Positions 2,130 through 58,494 of a stretch of DNA of 64,000 nt are shown piece after piece. Each line of letters starts with the position of its first letter. The stretch's first letter is position 1. A program made the translations under genes and the position numbers. The DNA lies in the NCBI GenBank assembly GCA_964348935.1, contig CAYGEJ010000001.1:51807-115806 (forward strand). The letters are read 5' to 3'. Source of the stretch: an uncultured Candidatus Saccharibacteria bacterium. Its GTDB lineage: Bacteria; Patescibacteriota; Doudnabacteria; UBA920. A model generated the notes under the pieces. It made no database searches. It saw nothing but the letters and a program-made list of their open reading frames with translations, and was not told where the DNA came from.

Positions 2130-3349
2130 TGAATATTGCTCAACTTGAAAAATTAAAGGCACTTATTGCAAGTTCACCCATACTTAATGTTACGGAAAGA
2201 GCGGAATGGTTGGCGCTTTTGGAATTGATGAATGACAAGCAGTTAGGGGAGCTGGAAAAAATTTTATTAGAATATCAGCCAGCTAGTGAAGCTATAAATA
2301 AACCTGTCAGCTCTAAGTCTGTGACAGGTGCGCAAATTTTGCCAAAAAAAGCTGAGCCAAGCCAGCAGGTAAATGGTTTGGTAAATTCGTTAAGCGGTAA
2401 GTCTATAGGTGATTTGGCAGGCGATTTGGCGTTACATAAAGAACCAATTGCTAAATTGGCGCAAACTCAAAGTGCTTCCAAGTCGGCTCCGGTTATGCAA
2501 CTTCCTCATTTGAGTCATATTATGAACTTGCCTAATCATTGGGATGAGAAAAAATCTCAAACGCCTTTAGTTGCTAAGGAAAAGATTGATAAGACTGTTA
2601 AGGGCATTGGTAATAAGCAGAGTTTTGCGAGCAAGTTAAAGTCAATCTTTTTAGAAAAAGAACTGACAACCAGTAAGCCGGAATACCCTTTGGAATTAGC
2701 TGATCGTATGGAATTGGAGGCTCAACCCGTGGCAGTTGAAATTTCGCAAATCGAAACACAAAACAAACCAACTGTGCATTTGCCGGAAGTTGAAGTTAAA
2801 ACCAAAACCGAACCAATTGCAGTGGCTGTGCCGAAGCCAAAAGTTCCGTTGCCGAAGATATCGCTGAAACCTCAAATTATTCCTGAGAAGCCAGTTTGGA
2901 AGCCTATAAAGAAGCCTGATTTTTCACAAGGTAAATTTATTCCGGGAGTTGAATTTAAAGAGGATTCAATTGCTTCCCGTAATGACACACTTGCTAATGT
3001 TAAAAAACATTTGGAAGAAAAAGAAGACTTGCATGAGTCATTAAGACCGTTGAATACTAATGTAAATTTAAATGGTTTAGCAGATTTAAAAAATTTAACA
3101 ATAGATACTGTTGACTCTAGTGATTTAAGCAGTATGGTTAATAAAATTAGACAAATGATTTCGAAATACGGTTTTTTTGAAGTTATTTTCAATCTCGAAG
3201 ACAGTTGGGTTTATAAATCATATCTTGCTACCGGGGTAAAATTAATGTCAGAAAATACCCAGGGAGACGATAATTCACTAGAAAAGGTTATGAATAAATC
3301 GCAATTTGAAAAATTTGCAGATTTGTTGTCAAAAATTCAGTCAGCATAA
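2129..3349 (+). CDS. hypothetical Pro/Lys-rich protein
   Basis: 406-aa ORF whose start overlaps the stop of the previous gene (ATAATG). It has repetitive P-K-P-K stretches. Confidence 0.4.
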   Translation: MNIAQLEKLKALIASSPILNVTERAEWLALLELMNDKQLGELEKILLEYQPASEAINKPVSSKSVTGAQILPKKAEPSQQVNGLVNSLSGKSIGDLAGDLALHKEPIAKLAQTQSASKSAPVMQLPHLSHIMNLPNHWDEKKSQTPLVAKEKIDKTVKGIGNKQSFASKLKSIFLEKELTTSKPEYPLELADRMELEAQPVAVEISQIETQNKPTVHLPEVEVKTKTEPIAVAVPKPKVPLPKISLKPQIIPEKPVWKPIKKPDFSQGKFIPGVEFKEDSIASRNDTLANVKKHLEEKEDLHESLRPLNTNVNLNGLADLKNLTIDTVDSSDLSSMVNKIRQMISKYGFFEVIFNLEDSWVYKSYLATGVKLMSENTQGDDNSLEKVMNKSQFEKFADLLSKIQSA

Positions 3350-49694: not shown

Positions 49695-49760
49695 TATTTT
49701 AATTTTAATTTGTGGGACCCCGATGTCCATCGGGGGTTTGTACCACGAAAGGAAAACAAT

Positions 49761-50447
49761 ATGGCAAAATTAGCAAAGAGAGTTAAAGCAAATAATGAAT
49801 TAGTAGATTTTAATAAAGTCTATTCAGCTGAAGAAGCTATTGAATTAGCTAAAAAGACTGCAACTACCAAGTTTGTTGGAAGTATTGAAGTGCATATTCG
49901 TACTTTAATTGAAGCCAAGAAAACAGACCAAGCGGTAAGAGGCACAGTTTCTTTGCCAAACGGCACTGGTAAAACCAAGCGCGTAGCCGCTTTCGTAACC
50001 GAATCCAAAGAAAAAGATGCTAAAGATGCGGGTGCTTTTGTGGTTGGTGGAGAAGATTTGATTAAGAAGATTAAAGAAACTGAAAAAACCGATTTCGATG
50101 TAGCTATTGCTGAACCAGCATTAATGCCTAAGCTTGCCGCTATTGCTAAAATTTTGGGTACTCGCGGACTTATGCCTAACCCAAAAACTGGCACCGTAGG
50201 ACCAAATATTGCTGAGATGGTAAAAGAAATTGCCGGTGGTAAAGTTAACTTTAAAAATGATGACTCCGGAAATATTCATCAAGTAATTGGTAAGACCAAT
50301 TTTGACAGTAAAGCATTGTTGGAAAATTTAAAAACATTTTATCAAGCGGTTTTACAAAGCAAGCCACAAACCGTAAAAGGACAATTAGTTGCCAGTGTGG
50401 TTTTAAATTCCACAATGGGACCTGGAATAAAGGTTAAAATAAGCTAA
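49761..50447 (+). CDS. rplA: 50S ribosomal protein L1
   Basis: From the internal ATG (MAKLAKRVKAN...), which gives the canonical L1 N-terminus. The track start at 49710 would translate through an intergenic hairpin (GGGACCCCGAUGUCCAUCGGGGGUUU). 228 aa. Confidence 0.9.
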   Translation: MAKLAKRVKANNELVDFNKVYSAEEAIELAKKTATTKFVGSIEVHIRTLIEAKKTDQAVRGTVSLPNGTGKTKRVAAFVTESKEKDAKDAGAFVVGGEDLIKKIKETEKTDFDVAIAEPALMPKLAAIAKILGTRGLMPNPKTGTVGPNIAEMVKEIAGGKVNFKNDDSGNIHQVIGKTNFDSKALLENLKTFYQAVLQSKPQTVKGQLVASVVLNSTMGPGIKVKIS

Positions 50448-55791: not shown

Positions 55792-56271
55792 ATGATTTCA
55801 ATAATTGCTGCTGTAGCGGAAAATAATGTTATAGGTATAAACAACACTCTTCCGTGGAATATCCCAGAAGATTTAAAACATTTTCAGGAAGTTACCAAAG
55901 GTAAAATTGTTTTAATGGGCAATAAAACATTTGAGTCTATTGTTTCTATTTTGGGTAAGCCACTGCCAAACAGAAAAAATGTTGTGGTAACATTAAATAA
56001 ATCCTATACTGTGCCAGCTGGAGTGGAGTTGGAGTTTGATTTATTTAATGCTTTAGAAAAATATAAAAATGAAGATTTATTTGTAATTGGCGGGGCGCAA
56101 ATTTGGAAATTGGCTTTGCCATTTGTAGACCAGTTGTATATAACTCACGTACATAAAAATTATGAAGGCGATGCTTTTTTCCCAGAAGTTAACTGGCAAG
56201 AATGGGAAAAAGTAGAAGAAGAAAAGCATTCAGAGTTTACATTTGCTAAATACATAAAAAAATCCCCATAA
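55792..56271 (+). CDS. folA: dihydrofolate reductase
   Basis: MISIIAAVAENNVIGINNTLPWNIPEDLKHFQEVTKGKIVLMG is the canonical DHFR N-terminus. 159 aa. Stop codon lies in the loop of a CCCCA-UAAU-UGGGG hairpin. Confidence 0.85.
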   Translation: MISIIAAVAENNVIGINNTLPWNIPEDLKHFQEVTKGKIVLMGNKTFESIVSILGKPLPNRKNVVVTLNKSYTVPAGVELEFDLFNALEKYKNEDLFVIGGAQIWKLALPFVDQLYITHVHKNYEGDAFFPEVNWQEWEKVEEEKHSEFTFAKYIKKSP

Positions 56272-56334
56272 TTGGGGTTTAAATTTAAATTGTGGCCGAA
56301 AGTGTAATTCGGCCGAAGTTTTTCGGACTCTTTG

Positions 56335-56547
56335 TTAGGAGTCCTGTTTTTTTGGTTGCTCAAGTCGGATCGCGGTTTTGTACGCCCATTTGGAAATGGG
56401 CATGAAAATCGAGATTCCATGGAGTATGGTCACTCCTACGGTGTTGCTAGTGCAACTTTCGGGAGTGTAGCACGCTCCATTTGCCATGGGTATTACCCAA
56501 AACTCGAGTGCCAGGCTCAGTAAGCCAAAACCAAGAAACCAATACAT
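56335..56547 (-). CDS. secreted or membrane-anchored 70-aa peptide with two Cys (island 4)
   Basis: ATG preceded by GUAGGAGGGCACA. Signal or TM segment MYWFLGFGLLSLALEFWVIPMANGA, then CYTPESCTSNTVGVTILHG... Divergent from the RHH regulator gene. Its stop overlaps a folA terminator hairpin. Confidence 0.45.
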   Translation of the reverse strand: MYWFLGFGLLSLALEFWVIPMANGACYTPESCTSNTVGVTILHGISIFMPISKWAYKTAIRLEQPKKQDS

Positions 56548-56654
56548 TGTGCCCTCCTACGGGTCATTGTTTGCAAAGACTTGTCAATTATTCTTTGCAC
56601 ACTAATTTTGCCATAAACCTTTGGGAATATCCATACCCCCAAAAAACGGTACCC

Positions 56655-56683
56655 TTGACAAAACGGGTAAAAGGGTGTATAAT
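56655..56683 (+). promoter_or_regulatory. consensus sigma70 promoter (TTGACA-N17-TATAAT) for the RHH regulator gene, with a second TATAAT 15 nt downstream
   Basis: cccTTGACAaaacgggtaaaagggtgTATAATaatcaattttttgtTATAATttg. Lies 50 nt upstream of the ATG at 56734. Confidence 0.4.
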
Positions 56684-56733
56684 AATCAATTTTTTGTTAT
56701 AATTTGTGAGCTCTGGTTTTTGAGATAATCGTT

Positions 56734-57174
56734 ATGTCACAATATATCGATCGTCACAAAAACAAACGTATGGTTGCACCAAGACTGTGCGAAACCGAAA
56801 TCCAAAAGCTCATGGCAACAAGGATGTTGCCAGGTCACGACCGCCATTCGAGGTTAGAGTTTTTGCTTACGCTAATGACCGAATTAGCCGAGCAGGAACT
56901 TGAATATCGTTTGGCGCCTACTAATACAGAGGCAAGGCATGGGCACGGAACACATCTTCGTATTTCAGACGAGCTGTGGGACAGATTACAAACCTATGCT
57001 TCAGTGTATAGGATGAGAACAGGTGAGCTTGCTCACGAACTGATACTGCTTGGCCTAGAGCTAGTGGAAGAAATAGAGAAAGTGGTCAAGTGGCCACTTA
57101 GGAAGGAGGAGATAAAAAGCCGGTTTAAAAGGACACTTGAACTTCGGTATGGGCGCATGCGCCAGCCGATTTAA
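56734..57174 (+). CDS. tandem ribbon-helix-helix (RHH) DNA-binding protein, putative repressor
   Basis: Two beta-alphaA-alphaB units: KRMVAPRLCETEIQKLMATRMLPGHDRHSRLEFLLTLMTELAEQ and THLRISDELWDRLQTYASVYRMRTGELAHELILLGLELVEE. GC-rich. 146 aa. Confidence 0.5.
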   Translation: MSQYIDRHKNKRMVAPRLCETEIQKLMATRMLPGHDRHSRLEFLLTLMTELAEQELEYRLAPTNTEARHGHGTHLRISDELWDRLQTYASVYRMRTGELAHELILLGLELVEEIEKVVKWPLRKEEIKSRFKRTLELRYGRMRQPI

Positions 57175-57399
57175 GACCTTACCGGGTCACACCTAAATGC
57201 AGTTTAAAACCCGCCTGGGGCCTTGCTCGCGCACAATTGTTACGTATGCGACAAGGCCTCTTAAATTTGGTAAAAATAAATGATATACTTAGTAAATGAA
57301 TCCCTTTTTAAAAAGGGATAGTCCATTATAAAGGGTTTTTGTATCTTTAAAATTTATTTCTTTATTATTTTAGGAGTAAATTAGAAATTTCAAACAAAG

Positions 57400-58494
57400 T
57401 TGAACGAATTAGCAAAAAAATTAGAACTACTTAAATCTGAAATTTTAAATCTTAAATCTCACTTAAATTTACCCCAAAAAGAGCAAAGAATTTTAGAGCT
57501 CGAAAGTGCTATGCAAGAAGGGGATTTTTGGGCAGATAATTTAAATGCACAAAAAGTTAGTCAAGAGTATAAAAATTTAAAAACATTTTACGATTTTTGG
57601 AAAGGTCTTGAAGATAAAACGCTTGAGCTTTTAGAATTGGTTAAAAATAATACTGACGAGTCGGATGAAACAAAAAGCTATTTAGTTGAGCAGTTTGAAG
57701 TTTTAGAAGAGCAATACAAGAAAAATCGCTTTGTTGCACTGCTTTCTAAAAAATATGACGATCATAATGCAATTTTTTCTATTCACTCAGGTGCGGGTGG
57801 GGTAGATGCGCAAGATTGGGCAGATATGCTCCTACGAATGTTTTTAAGATATTGCGAGAAAAAAGGTTTTAGCACAGAAGTATTGGAATTAAGCAAAGGT
57901 GAACAGGGTGGAGTAAAAACCGCAGTGGTGGAAGTTCATGGGGCATACGCGTATGGACTTTTAAAAAGTGAAGCTGGAGTTCATAGGTTGGTGCGTTTGT
58001 CTCCTTTCAACCCAGCACACACTAGAGAGACTTCATTTGCTTTAATGGAATTATTACCACTCTTAGAAGAAAAAGAAGAACTTACAATAGACCCGAAGGA
58101 CTTAAAAATAGAAGCCAATACTGCAAGTGGTCACGGTGGGCAAAGCGTTAATACTACATATTCTGCAATTCGTATAACTCATATTCCAACTGGACTTAAA
58201 GTTAGCATTCAAAATGAACGTAGCCAACACCAAAACCGCGAAATGGCTATGAAAATTTTAATGGCTAGACTTAAAATTTTAGAAGAAGAAAAACTACAAA
58301 AGGAAAAGCAAGAATTACGCGGAGAATTTAAGAGTGCGGAATGGGGTAATCAAATTCGCTCTTACGTGGTACATCCTTATAAAATGGTAAAAGATCATCG
58401 CACTAATTTTGAAACTAGTGATCCAGATTCAGTATTAAATGGCGAACTTGATGAATTTGTGGAAAGTTATTTGGAAAAAATAGCTTCAAGCTAG
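57400..58494 (+). CDS. prfB: peptide chain release factor 2
   Basis: SPF tripeptide (RLSPFNPAH) and GGQ (SGHGGQSVNTT). 364 aa in one frame from a TTG start. No programmed +1 frameshift site is evident. Confidence 0.85.
   Translation: MNELAKKLELLKSEILNLKSHLNLPQKEQRILELESAMQEGDFWADNLNAQKVSQEYKNLKTFYDFWKGLEDKTLELLELVKNNTDESDETKSYLVEQFEVLEEQYKKNRFVALLSKKYDDHNAIFSIHSGAGGVDAQDWADMLLRMFLRYCEKKGFSTEVLELSKGEQGGVKTAVVEVHGAYAYGLLKSEAGVHRLVRLSPFNPAHTRETSFALMELLPLLEEKEELTIDPKDLKIEANTASGHGGQSVNTTYSAIRITHIPTGLKVSIQNERSQHQNREMAMKILMARLKILEEEKLQKEKQELRGEFKSAEWGNQIRSYVVHPYKMVKDHRTNFETSDPDSVLNGELDEFVESYLEKIASS

What the first reader, a model, noticed from the sequence alone, without database searches (positions are those of the whole stretch)
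56272..57330. Island 4: divergent pair of a secreted two-Cys 70-aa peptide and a tandem ribbon-helix-helix repressor, inserted between folA and prfB
This GC-rich 1-kb segment holds two divergent genes. A plus-strand gene, behind a perfect TTGACA-N17-TATAAT promoter, encodes a protein with two consecutive RHH units (beta-strand MVAPRL / HLRISD, each followed by two helices). This is a covalently dimeric Arc/CopG-type repressor. The minus-strand gene, with an AGGAGG SD, encodes a signal-peptide-bearing 70-aa peptide (CYTPESCTS...). A small exported peptide under a dedicated RHH repressor resembles bacteriocin or immunity modules, toxin-antitoxin modules, or plasmid/ICE maintenance modules. An imperfect long hairpin (GGCCUUG...CAAGGCC, 57218-57262) and an AUCCCUUUU/AAAAGGGAU palindrome follow the regulator gene.
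Basis: partly seen in the sequence, partly recalled or inferred. Interest (0 to 1): 0.6.

Follow-up and report, generated by a model that had tools for sequence, protein, structure and literature searches.

The report
prfB-linked double-RHH protein plus variable peptide
This GC-rich kilobase is not a recently inserted island: it holds a rare, unannotated DNA-binding protein (two ribbon-helix-helix units in one chain, folded like plasmid protein TraY) that sits just upstream of the release-factor-2 gene prfB in every relative recovered from a group of uncultured Patescibacteria, and in this sub-lineage it faces a small, unusually variable membrane-peptide gene across a strongly conserved control region.

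Summary

The "inserted island" reading fails. X belongs to a very rare family (19 representatives among 1.84 billion proteins). In all 11 lineages recovered it lies directly upstream of prfB (tmk–X–prfB–ftsE–ftsX–rplI). X is GC-richer than its neighbours in every lineage checked. No relative was found in plasmid, phage or viral collections.

The 70-aa ORF is a real gene, with pN below pS and a conserved SD and ATG, and it occurs in four lineages. It looks like a two-helix membrane hairpin rather than a free secreted peptide. It is confined to one sub-lineage, is far more diverged than its flanks, and has been swapped as a cassette.

Most likely X is a monomeric sequence-specific DNA binder that autoregulates and, here, also controls the peptide gene. 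DNA binding and regulation are inferred, not shown. This is a new sequence family with a known architecture in a new context. Interest is moderate.

The parts
56264..56352 (.). Block of three hairpins between the convergent folA and peptide genes, acting as a bidirectional terminator cluster. Hairpin 1 is CCCCATAATTGGGG (56264-56277) and contains the folA stop codon; on the minus strand it is followed by ATTTTTTT. Hairpin 2 is 56293-56315. Hairpin 3 is GGACTC..GAGTCC (56325-56344) followed by a T7 run.
   Evidence: The terminator scan lists these hairpins. The fold is -33.4 kcal/mol (plus strand) and -29.5 kcal/mol (minus strand), z = -5.8 and -6.1. The stem of hairpin 2 and the TTTAAATTTAAATT spacer are invariant in four lineages. 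Hairpin 3 keeps its pairing with different sequences in win, L004, L006 and L007.
56335..56547 (-). Gene for a 70-aa small membrane peptide. It has a hydrophobic N-terminal segment, then the loop G-A-C-[YF]-T-P-x-x-C-x-x-N, a second hydrophobic helix containing a conserved His, and a basic C-terminal tail.
   Evidence: The ORF is present. Orthologous ORFs occur in L004, L006 and L007. pN is below pS in all pairs. Hydropathy shows two hydrophobic segments. No family match in Pfam, PHROGs, NCBIfam or PADLOC. There is no paralog in the window.
56552..56558 (-). Shine-Dalgarno site AGGAGGG of the peptide gene, 4 nt before its ATG.
   Evidence: Read from the sequence. The block GCCCTCCTAC is invariant in four lineages.
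56572..56599 (.). Inverted repeat TGCAAAGA-N12-TCTTTGCA. It is either a candidate operator or a 5' stem-loop of the peptide mRNA.
   Evidence: It is unique in the window, with 0 expected by chance. The arms are invariant and the spacer varies across four lineages. As RNA the fold is not significant (z = -0.85), and no covariation is possible because the arms never vary.
56627..56649 (.). Conserved intergenic block ATATCCATACCCCCAAAAAACGG of unknown role. It may belong to the peptide promoter.
   Evidence: Near-invariant in alignment A5.
56655..56683 (+). Promoter P1: TTGACA-N17-TATAAT. It is found only in the peptide-bearing sub-lineage.
   Evidence: 12 of 12 matches. Both hexamers are invariant in four lineages. 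It is absent upstream of X in the distant loci.
56695..56716 (+). Family-wide promoter and transcript-start element P2: the extended -10 TGTTATAAT (56695-56703), then 6 nt, then GCTCTGG (56710-56716).
   Evidence: Alignment A8 of 11 lineages gives the consensus TTTTTTGnTATAAT-N7-GCTCTGGCT, with TG and GC..TGG invariant. No comparable promoter-linked GCTCTGG copy was found elsewhere in the window.
56734..57174 (+). Gene X: a 146-aa single-chain double ribbon-helix-helix protein with a C-terminal helix. The family signature is P-L-R-K-E-E.
   Evidence: Purifying selection acts on it (pN 0.10 against pS 0.57 versus L004). No lineage has an SD before the start codon.
57103..57109 (+). Internal AAGGAGG, formed by the Lys-Glu codons of the PLRKEE motif, conserved at nucleotide level.
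   Evidence: The codons are AAG GAG G in 8 of 8 lineages, although AAG and GAG make up only 49% and 46% of the Lys and Glu codons in X genes. Its meaning is unknown.
57217..57260 (+). GC-rich hairpin after X, a likely (weak) terminator. Every lineage has a GC-rich hairpin at this position, and in most it is followed by a T run.
   Evidence: The window hairpin folds at -24.1 kcal/mol, z = -3.0. The homologous spacers are shown.
57281..57399 (+). Putative prfB promoter (extended -10 TGATATACT, 57281-57289) and a conserved leader of about 100 nt. The leader includes the non-conserved palindrome at 57300-57319 and AGGAG at 57372-57376.
   Evidence: Conservation is seen in alignment A1. The palindrome is listed, and its fold gives z = -1.15. 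The promoter assignment is an inference from the sequence.

Best explanation
The segment is a conserved chromosomal locus of a group of uncultured Patescibacteria (CPR). The nearest named relative, judged by RF2, is Candidatus Doudnabacteria.

Gene X encodes a single polypeptide with two ribbon-helix-helix units. They pack into the pseudo-dimer that ordinary RHH proteins form from two chains, and a conserved C-terminal helix (PLRKEE...) follows. X has its own extended -10 promoter, an SD-less leader that starts at a conserved GCTCTGGC, and its own terminator hairpin. It always sits immediately upstream of prfB-ftsE-ftsX.

Proposed mechanism (inferred):
- X binds DNA as a monomer, through the two-stranded sheet (strands 11-18 and 73-78, with conserved Arg/Lys17 and Arg76) and the basic N-terminal arm DRHKNKR.
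- X autoregulates at its own promoter or transcription start.
- In the window's sub-lineage X also controls the divergent peptide gene. There a 186-bp control region gained a consensus promoter (P1) and an invariant inverted repeat (56572-56599) next to the peptide's SD.

The peptide is a 64-70-aa membrane hairpin with a short outward C-x5-C loop. A Glu in helix 1 and a His in helix 2 each lie 11 residues from the Cys pair, so they would face each other in the membrane. The peptide is an accessory cargo gene of the variable slot upstream of X. It is maintained as deeply diverged alleles that are exchanged by recombination between the conserved flanks.

Shown: the fold, the synteny, the conservation, the coding status, the cassette mosaic and the compositional anomaly.
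Inferred: DNA binding, the operator identities, repression, the membrane topology and the peptide's role.
For: Fold:
- AlphaFold2 with 20 sequences gives pLDDT 85 and pTM 0.80, and all five models score 80-85. The elements are E11-14, H20-28, H37-54, E75-78, H79-91, H96-115 and H124-138.
- The top 11 Foldseek hits are all TraY chains, with probability 0.97-1.0.
- The profile search against PDB sequences hits mostly RHH proteins, including MazE7, AvtR and HP0222.
- Family members hit the Pfam families RHH_5, NikA-like, RHH_1 and ParD_like.
- The literature describes TraY and DndE as monomeric tandem RHH proteins with a C-terminal helix (PMC10853773; bioRxiv 10.1101/2024.12.19.629322).

Synteny:
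- X lies directly upstream of prfB in win, L004, L006, L008, L009, L010, L091, L092, L093, L094 and L096, i.e. 11 of 11 lineages.
- L092 and L001 show tmk-(thyA-folA)-X-prfB-ftsE-ftsX-rplI.

Cis-elements: alignment A8, alignment A5, and the uniqueness of the inverted repeat.

Peptide:
- It is coding, with pN below pS in all six pairs; win versus L007 gives 0.198 against 0.449.
- Invariant residues are E15, P20, A22, G24, A25, C26, T28, P29, C32, N35, V37, G38, V39, L42 and H43.
- It has two hydrophobic segments and a basic tail.

Mosaic:
- L007 is 97-100% identical to L006 in both flanks, and their X proteins are 98.4% identical.
- Their peptides are only 51% identical, whereas the L007 peptide is 72% identical to the window's.
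- Between win and L004, pS is 0.32 for folA, 0.57 for X and 0.71 for the peptide.
Against: - No experiment or binding data exist.
- The arms of the inverted repeat are invariant, so neither covariation nor co-variation with the protein can separate a DNA operator from an RNA hairpin.
- Strand 1 differs between win and L006 (MVAPRL against FLAATL) although the inverted repeat and the other blocks are identical. This argues against strand 1 reading those blocks specifically.
- Most X homologs have no peptide gene, so X's primary role is not peptide control.
- GCTCTGGC could simply be a conserved transcript start rather than an operator.
- The peptide promoter could not be placed convincingly. 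The only scan hit (ATGGCA-16-AATAAT, 9 of 12) is not conserved in L004 or L006.
- The closest structural analogues (TraY, DndE, VirC2) are DNA-processing accessory factors, not simple repressors.
Confidence: 0.5

Rival explanations
1. X is a DNA-architectural or accessory factor, or a regulator of prfB-ftsEX, and has no regulatory tie to the peptide. The peptide is an independent accessory gene that landed in a plastic intergenic slot. The inverted repeat is then a 5' stem-loop of the peptide mRNA, or the site of another factor.
For: - The association with prfB is universal (11 of 11 lineages), whereas the peptide is confined to one sub-lineage.
- In L009 prfB starts about 20 nt after X's terminator, with no room for a promoter. 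This implies read-through co-transcription.
- The nearest structural analogues TraY, DndE and VirC2 are accessory DNA-binding factors (PMC10853773).
- Several homologs carry a C-terminal amphipathic tail (DIRQGFRLIWRAL..) that suggests membrane association.
- The slot upstream of X holds unrelated genes in other lineages, for example an HExxH membrane protein in L096.
Against: - The 186-bp divergent region is more conserved than either flanking gene in all four peptide-bearing lineages.
- That region gained a consensus promoter for X exactly where the peptide gene is present, which suggests coupled control.
- No motif is shared between the X and prfB promoter regions. GCTCTGG is absent from the prfB leader.
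Confidence: 0.3
2. The segment is a horizontally acquired island carrying a bacteriocin/immunity, toxin-antitoxin or plasmid/ICE-maintenance-like module: an exported peptide plus its dedicated RHH repressor.
For: - The compositional anomaly is real: GC3 is 0.47-0.54 against 0.25-0.29 in neighbours.
- The peptide is cationic and hydrophobic, has a two-Cys loop, is hypervariable and has been exchanged by recombination. That pattern is seen in bacteriocin and pheromone loci (general knowledge).
- RHH proteins are common antitoxins and plasmid regulators.
- X identities do not track RF2 identities. For example win versus L092 is 82% for RF2 but 30% for X, while L092 versus L009 is 71% for RF2 and 43% for X.
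Against: - X sits in the same slot in every lineage, down to RF2 identities of about 64%.
- X is GC-richer than its flanks everywhere, so the anomaly is a property of the gene and not of a recent import.
- No integrase, repeats, tRNA or attachment sites are nearby.
- No relatives were found in 72,556 plasmids, 50,697 phage records or IMG/VR, and no meaningful PADLOC hit.
- The two genes are divergent rather than a bicistronic toxin-antitoxin operon.
- There is no toxin, immunity or export gene.
- The peptide keeps a membrane anchor, so it is not a released product.
Confidence: 0.1
3. The 460-bp GC-rich gap between folA and X encodes a structured non-coding RNA, and the 70-aa ORF is spurious.
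For: - The gap has a conserved length (about 450-470 nt) in three lineages, and gene callers skipped the ORF in L004 and L006.
- The region is GC-rich in an AT-rich genome.
- The 56260-56352 block is strongly structured.
Against: - Rfam finds nothing, even at E up to 1.
- The ORF, its ATG and its AGGAGG SD are kept in four lineages despite about 50% nucleotide divergence.
- Changes are biased towards synonymous sites (pN/pS 0.4-0.6 of pS).
- Indels in the peptide alignments fall in whole codons.
- The structured block is explained by convergent terminators.
Confidence: 0.03

Closest known systems
TraY of the F plasmid (relaxosome accessory protein; Pfam TraY)
   Different: Aligned identity is only 12-15%, and there is no Pfam TraY hit. 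X is chromosomal, with no relaxase, oriT or tra genes nearby. It is fixed next to prfB in CPR genomes and absent from the plasmid collection.
DndE (DNA phosphorothioation) and VirC2 / MJ0366 (single-chain, trefoil-knotted RHH proteins)
   Different: No dnd or ABC-ATPase (DndD) partner genes and no virulence or T-DNA context are present. There is no sequence-family match.
Arc / Mnt / CopG / MetJ-type RHH repressors and RHH antitoxins (MazE7, ParD, HicB and similar)
   Same: The DNA-binding fold is the same, and each unit has the beta-strand/helix/helix pattern. Weak profile hits fall on unit 2, residues 67-109. Autoregulated small genes with operators overlapping their promoters are typical of this class, and X probably works in that way.
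   Different: Those proteins carry one RHH per chain and act as homodimers or higher oligomers. X carries both halves in one chain, so it can read an asymmetric site. It has no toxin partner and no bicistronic operon.
Small two-helix membrane proteins: class II holins and sec-dependent class II bacteriocins
   Same: The peptide is 64-70 aa with two hydrophobic segments and a charged basic C-terminal tail, as in class II holins. It is cationic and hydrophobic with an N-terminal two-Cys loop, as in some class II bacteriocins.
   Different: There is no endolysin or phage context, no immunity gene and no dedicated transporter. The spacing is C-x5-C, not the pediocin box (C-x4-C). No match was found in Pfam, PHROGs, NCBIfam or PADLOC.

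Membership tests
Ribbon-helix-helix (MetJ/Arc) superfamily | A beta-strand/helix/helix unit in which two strands pair into an antiparallel sheet | tested here: met
   AlphaFold predicts two beta-alpha-alpha units. The best structural matches are RHH proteins. Weak but consistent RHH sequence hits were found.
Ribbon-helix-helix (MetJ/Arc) superfamily | Sequence-specific binding of double-stranded DNA through the sheet | not testable with these tools
   This needs gel-shift or footprinting assays. Only candidate sites were identified.
Single-chain tandem RHH architecture (TraY / DndE / VirC2 type) | Two RHH units in one polypeptide plus a C-terminal helix | tested here: met
TraY family (Pfam TraY; relaxosome accessory) | Sequence match to the family profile | tested here: not met
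   No Pfam hit for X at E up to 10. None of the 20 family members hits TraY.
TraY family (Pfam TraY; relaxosome accessory) | Encoded in a tra/relaxase/oriT context on a conjugative element | tested here: not met
   The neighbours are folA/tmk and prfB-ftsE-ftsX-rplI. tblastn against plasmids finds nothing.
DndE | Pfam DndE match and pairing with a DndD/CxC ABC ATPase and dndA/C genes | tested here: not met
   No Pfam hit and no dnd genes in any of the loci.
Type II toxin-antitoxin module with an RHH antitoxin | A co-directional, adjacent or overlapping antitoxin-toxin gene pair with a recognisable toxin | tested here: not met
   The genes are divergent and 186 bp apart. The peptide matches no toxin family. 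Most X homologs have no partner gene.
Genomic island or mobile element | Patchy presence or absence at the site, mobility genes or flanking repeats, and relatives on mobile elements | tested here: not met
   X is present at the same slot in 11 of 11 lineages. No integrase, tRNA or direct repeats were found. No plasmid, phage or viral relatives were found. The compositional anomaly is real but family-wide.
Sec-type secreted peptide or class II bacteriocin | A cleavable leader that releases a soluble mature peptide, with adjacent immunity and export genes | tested here: inconclusive
   An A-x-G/A motif preceded by Pro could be a signal-peptidase site. However, the part after it keeps a membrane-spanning segment and a basic tail. 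No immunity or export gene is present. SignalP and DeepTMHMM were not available.
Class II holin | Two transmembrane helices, a charged C-terminus, and a lysis-cassette or phage context | tested here: not met
   The layout is compatible, but there is no endolysin or phage context and no PHROGs hit.

The most novel reading that the evidence does not exclude
X founds a previously undescribed, group-specific family of single-chain (possibly trefoil-knotted) RHH proteins. In a group of ultra-small Patescibacteria this family is the dedicated transcriptional controller of the RF2-FtsEX unit, possibly membrane-tethered in some lineages through a C-terminal amphipathic tail. In one sub-lineage it was co-opted to gate a hypervariable, recombining membrane peptide that acts in cell-cell or host recognition, in a pherotype- or bacteriocin-like way.
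Probability: 0.12. Interest if true: 0.65.

Novelty: new variant of a known kind. Interest (0 to 1): 0.45.

Why it matters
CPR/Patescibacteria have tiny genomes with very few recognisable regulators, and most of their lineage-specific small genes are uncharacterised. Here a rare, fast-evolving DNA-binding protein keeps a fixed position next to an essential translation-termination and cell-division gene cluster (prfB-ftsEX). It has an architecture so far known from plasmid and DNA-modification accessory factors (TraY, DndE, VirC2). If it regulates that cluster, it would be a new lineage-specific control point for core functions.

The adjacent peptide gene is a clean natural example of a small membrane-protein cassette kept as deeply diverged alleles and swapped between conserved flanks. 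That is the pattern expected for molecules under frequency-dependent or recognition-type selection. It is of interest for organisms thought to live attached to other cells. None of this is functionally shown, so the present value is as a well-defined target for experiments.

Tried and rejected
- Rfam, over the region at E up to 1 and over the whole window at gathering thresholds, found only two tRNA-Ser genes far from the region. ARAGORN found the same two. An ncRNA or tRNA-linked island is therefore rejected.
- Pfam, NCBIfam, PHROGs and PADLOC gave no significant hit for X or the peptide.
- A genome-contig scan with the X alignment found nothing.
- A second genome-contig scan with RF2 returned 80 loci at 64% identity or less. 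None contains an X homolog by HMM search. Presence or absence in the closest named genomes could therefore not be scored. The best locus, L011 (Candidatus Doudnabacteria), is truncated at the prfB 5' end.
- The metagenome scan with the close alignment found nothing. The scan with the distant subfamily found 2 loci. The full-family alignment was too divergent for pattern building.
- Viral-contig scans and tblastn against plasmids and phages found nothing.
- The search for a regulon gave little. GCTCTGG occurs 7 times in the window against 2.9 expected, but only the copy at X follows a promoter that is conserved across lineages. The TTCTTTGCAC half-site is at chance level.
- Hairpin 2 and the TTTAAATTTAAATT motif are not a repeated element.
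- RNA-level reading of the inverted repeat showed no covariation and z = -0.85.
- The idea that GTATCTTTAAA in the prfB leader is a remnant of the RF2 frameshift site was rejected. The RF2 N-terminus is encoded downstream and there is no upstream ORF.
- The type IV pilin and lipoprotein readings of the peptide's N-terminus were rejected by inspection. There is no G-F-T-L-I-E-type motif, and the -3 position of a would-be lipobox is Lys or Asn.
- The afdb50 fold library was unavailable.
Full report
**1. What is in the sequence**

The window is AT-rich (about 0.30-0.39 GC per kb). Between about 56300 and 57300 the GC rises to 0.44-0.48. Two divergent ORFs lie there. One is a plus-strand ORF of 146 aa (56734-57174, here called X). 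The other is a minus-strand ORF of 70 aa (56335-56547). folA ends at 56271 and prfB starts at 57400.

- TTGACA-N17-TATAAT at 56655-56683 matches 12 of 12 positions.
- AGGAGGG lies 4 nt before the peptide ATG.
- A long imperfect hairpin after X folds at -24.1 kcal/mol, z = -3.0.
- The palindrome is at 57300-57319.

The GC excess is not only an effect of amino-acid composition. GC3 is 0.47 for X and 0.54 for the peptide gene, against 0.25-0.29 in six neighbouring genes.

**2. X is a real protein and a single-chain double RHH**

Only three close homologs exist among 5.8 billion clustered proteins: 100%, 82% and 53% identity. Substitutions are strongly biased towards synonymous sites (pN 0.10 against pS 0.57 versus L004).

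An exhaustive HMMER search of 1.84 billion representatives found only 19 relatives. All but one are 95-170 aa long, and none has an annotation.

AlphaFold2 with the three close sequences gave strand-helix-helix twice, followed by a C-terminal helix (pLDDT 73). With 20 family members it gave pLDDT 85 and pTM 0.80, with all five models in agreement.

Structure and sequence comparisons agree:
- At sequence level the weak hits are all RHH: PHROG Arc-like; MazE7, AvtR and HP0222 on unit 2; and RHH_5, NikA-like, RHH_1 and ParD_like for some family members.

The literature describes exactly this architecture for TraY and DndE: two RHH copies plus a C-terminal helix, acting as a monomer (PMC10853773; bioRxiv 10.1101/2024.12.19.629322). 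It also notes that VirC2, DndE and MJ0366 are trefoil-knotted (PMC5425179). I could not test a knot in X because the model coordinates are not exposed.

**3. It is not an inserted island**

All contigs carrying X or its relatives show the same neighbourhood.
- L001 (identical to the window) and L004 (82%) read dut-dNMP kinase-tmk-thyA-folA-[about 450-nt gap]-X-prfB-ftsE-ftsX-rplI.
- L006 (53%) reads folA-gap-X-prfB.
- The distant homologs (23-34% identity to X) are also immediately upstream of prfB: L008, L009, L010, L091 and L092, and L093, L094 and L096.

That makes 11 of 11 lineages in which downstream sequence is available. In L092, L009 and L094 the upstream neighbour is tmk itself, with no peptide gene. 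In L096 an unrelated 146-aa HExxH membrane protein fills the slot.

RF2 identity to the window ranges from 93% down to 64% across these lineages, while X identity falls to 27-34%. X is thus a fast-evolving but positionally fixed gene.

X is GC-richer than its flanks in every lineage checked (0.46-0.53 against 0.35-0.45). Its GC3 stays at 0.47-0.58 whatever the host GC3, which ranges from 0.25 to 0.57. The anomaly therefore belongs to the gene and not to a recent import.

No relatives occur in the plasmid, phage or IMG/VR collections, and there is no significant defence-system match. No tRNA, integrase or flanking direct repeats are present.

The nearest named genome by RF2 is a Candidatus Doudnabacteria MAG (64%). 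None of the 80 GTDB loci fetched carries X. X is therefore confined to a narrow, poorly sampled Patescibacteria group.

**4. Cis-elements**

Aligning the X upstream regions of 11 lineages gives a common layout. The terminator of the upstream gene comes first. It is followed by TTTTTTG-n-TATAAT (an extended -10), about 7 nt, GCTCTGGCT, a pyrimidine-rich leader of about 20 nt without an SD, and then ATG.

In the window this element lies at 56695-56716. It is the second -10, not the 'perfect' promoter. The perfect TTGACA-N17-TATAAT (P1) exists only in the four peptide-bearing lineages, where it is invariant.

The 186-bp divergent region is better conserved than either flanking gene. The invariant blocks are GCCCTCCTAC (the peptide SD), TTTGCAAAGACT.GTC..TT.TTCTTTGCAC, ATATC.ATACCC..AAAAAA, P1, and P2 with GCTCTGG.

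The inverted repeat TGCAAAGA-N12-TCTTTGCA (56572-56599) is unique in the window, with 0 expected by chance. Its arms never vary, so it cannot be decided whether it acts as a DNA operator or as a 5' RNA stem-loop. As RNA it is unremarkable (z = -0.85).

Every lineage has a GC-rich hairpin right after X. In L009 prfB starts about 20 nt after that hairpin, which implies read-through co-transcription in that lineage.

Between folA and the peptide gene three hairpins form a bidirectional terminator block (z = -5.8 and -6.1). Hairpin 3 is kept through sequence change in four lineages.

**5. The peptide**

Orthologous minus-strand ORFs exist in L004 (64 aa), L006 (67 aa from the conserved Met) and L007 (67 aa; P0005). 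The ATG and the AGGAGG are conserved. pN is below pS in all six pairs, so this is a coding gene.

Invariant residues are E15, P20, A22, G24-A25-C26, T28-P29, C32, N35, V37-G38-V39, L42-H43 and K67. Hydropathy shows two hydrophobic segments and a basic tail.

An A-x-G/A site preceded by Pro could be cut by signal peptidase. Even then the product would stay anchored by the second helix. E15 and H43 each lie 11 residues from the Cys pair, so in a helical hairpin they would sit at the same membrane depth. I therefore favour an uncleaved two-helix hairpin with a short external C-x5-C loop. This is an inference, and no predictor was available.

No family matches were found, and there is no paralog in the window or the fetched loci.

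**6. Hypervariability and cassette exchange**

- L007 is 97-100% identical to L006 on both sides: the folA end through hairpin 2, and from the SD region onward. Their X proteins are 98.4% identical.
- The L007 peptide is only 51% identical to L006's, but 72% identical to the window's.
- Between the window and L004, pS is 0.32 for folA, 0.57 for X and 0.71 for the peptide. The corresponding pN values are 0.02, 0.10 and 0.42.

Old, diverged peptide alleles are therefore being moved between otherwise similar chromosomes by recombination in the conserved flanks. Loci under recognition-type or frequency-dependent selection show this pattern. The pattern does not say what the peptide does.

**7. Mechanism and rivals**

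Best-supported model (confidence 0.5). X is a monomeric, pseudo-dimeric RHH DNA binder that autoregulates. In this sub-lineage it also controls the divergent peptide promoter through the conserved control region.

Main rival (0.3). X serves prfB-ftsEX or has an architectural role, and the peptide is an unrelated accessory gene.

The mobile-module reading (bacteriocin, toxin-antitoxin or plasmid maintenance) gets 0.1. The ncRNA reading gets 0.03.

Caveats:
- No binding data exist.
- Strand 1 differs between lineages that share identical intergenic blocks.
- The peptide promoter could not be placed.

**8. Novelty and verdict**

The fold and the single-chain architecture are known. The new elements are:
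- the sequence family, which has no profile match and only 19 representatives in 1.84 billion proteins;
- its strict chromosomal linkage to prfB in a CPR group;
- its persistent atypical composition;
- its pairing with a recombining membrane-peptide cassette.

I rate it a new variant of a known kind, of moderate interest (0.45). It gives a well-defined experimental target, but no function has been demonstrated.

Noticed in passing
L096:5040-5110 versus window 57400-57480: The prfB of the distant lineage L096 carries the canonical +1 programmed frameshift site (AAGGAG CAT CTT TGA G after a 22-codon ORF1). The window's prfB reads straight through (..LKSHLNLPQKEQ..). X is linked to prfB in both cases.
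   Followed up: partly
L092:5540-5575, L010:560-591, L094:990-1016: In several related lineages the prfB ATG lies only 6-8 nt after a TATAAT-like -10, which suggests a leaderless mRNA. The window, L004 and L006 instead have a conserved leader of about 100 nt (57296-57399) containing AGGAGTAAATTAGAAATTT.
   Followed up: no
window 57103-57109 (and the same codons in L004, L006, L008, L009, L010, L091, L092): The Lys-Glu codons of the PLRKEE signature are AAG GAG G in 8 of 8 lineages, forming a perfect SD-like AAGGAGG inside X. AAG and GAG make up only about half of the Lys and Glu codons in X genes. No consistent downstream start codon was found.
   Followed up: partly
window 56813-56832: The perfect intragenic palindrome TGGCAACA-AGGA-TGTTGCCA (encoding MATRMLP) is invariant at nucleotide level, including four synonymous positions, in all four peptide-bearing lineages. 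Elsewhere synonymous sites are near saturation.
   Followed up: no
P0012, P0013, P0015, P0016, P0020, P0026; L091:83-550: About a third of X homologs carry an extra C-terminal amphipathic tail (..DIRQGFRLIWRALS..R) that looks like a membrane-targeting helix. The window's X lacks it.
   Followed up: no
L096:4011-4451; L004:1311-1886 and 2751-3113: The tmk-thyA-folA-X stretch is plastic. L096 has a 146-aa protein with an N-terminal transmembrane segment and a HELYH (HExxH) motif in the slot that holds the peptide gene in the window. L004 has an extra 191-aa ORF and a 23S-rRNA-intervening-sequence/bAvd-like gene.
   Followed up: no
P0018 (835 aa): A long protein with nine repeated stretches matches X residues 45-98 (helix B of unit 1 through strand 2). 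It may be a repeat protein built from RHH-like pieces, or a low-complexity artefact.
   Followed up: no
X genes of all lineages: X keeps GC3 near 0.5 (0.47-0.58) regardless of host GC3 (0.25-0.57). X identities are also not congruent with RF2 identities. Possible causes are recurrent recombination with GC-biased conversion, exchange among related lineages, or selection on synonymous sites. None of these was resolved.
   Followed up: partly
window 49699-49765: The intergenic region upstream of the ribosomal protein L1 gene shows TTTTAATTTTAATTTGTGG followed by a GC-rich hairpin (GACCCCGATGTCCATCGGGGG) and an SD. It may be an L1-binding leader. Rfam reported nothing at gathering score.
   Followed up: no
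L092:3872-4084: A 70-aa Cys-rich small protein with an N-terminal hydrophobic segment (..CRALGGQIAGCGLSYECPEGEE..CYMGCCK) lies upstream of tmk in a distant lineage. It is unrelated in sequence to the window's peptide.
   Followed up: no
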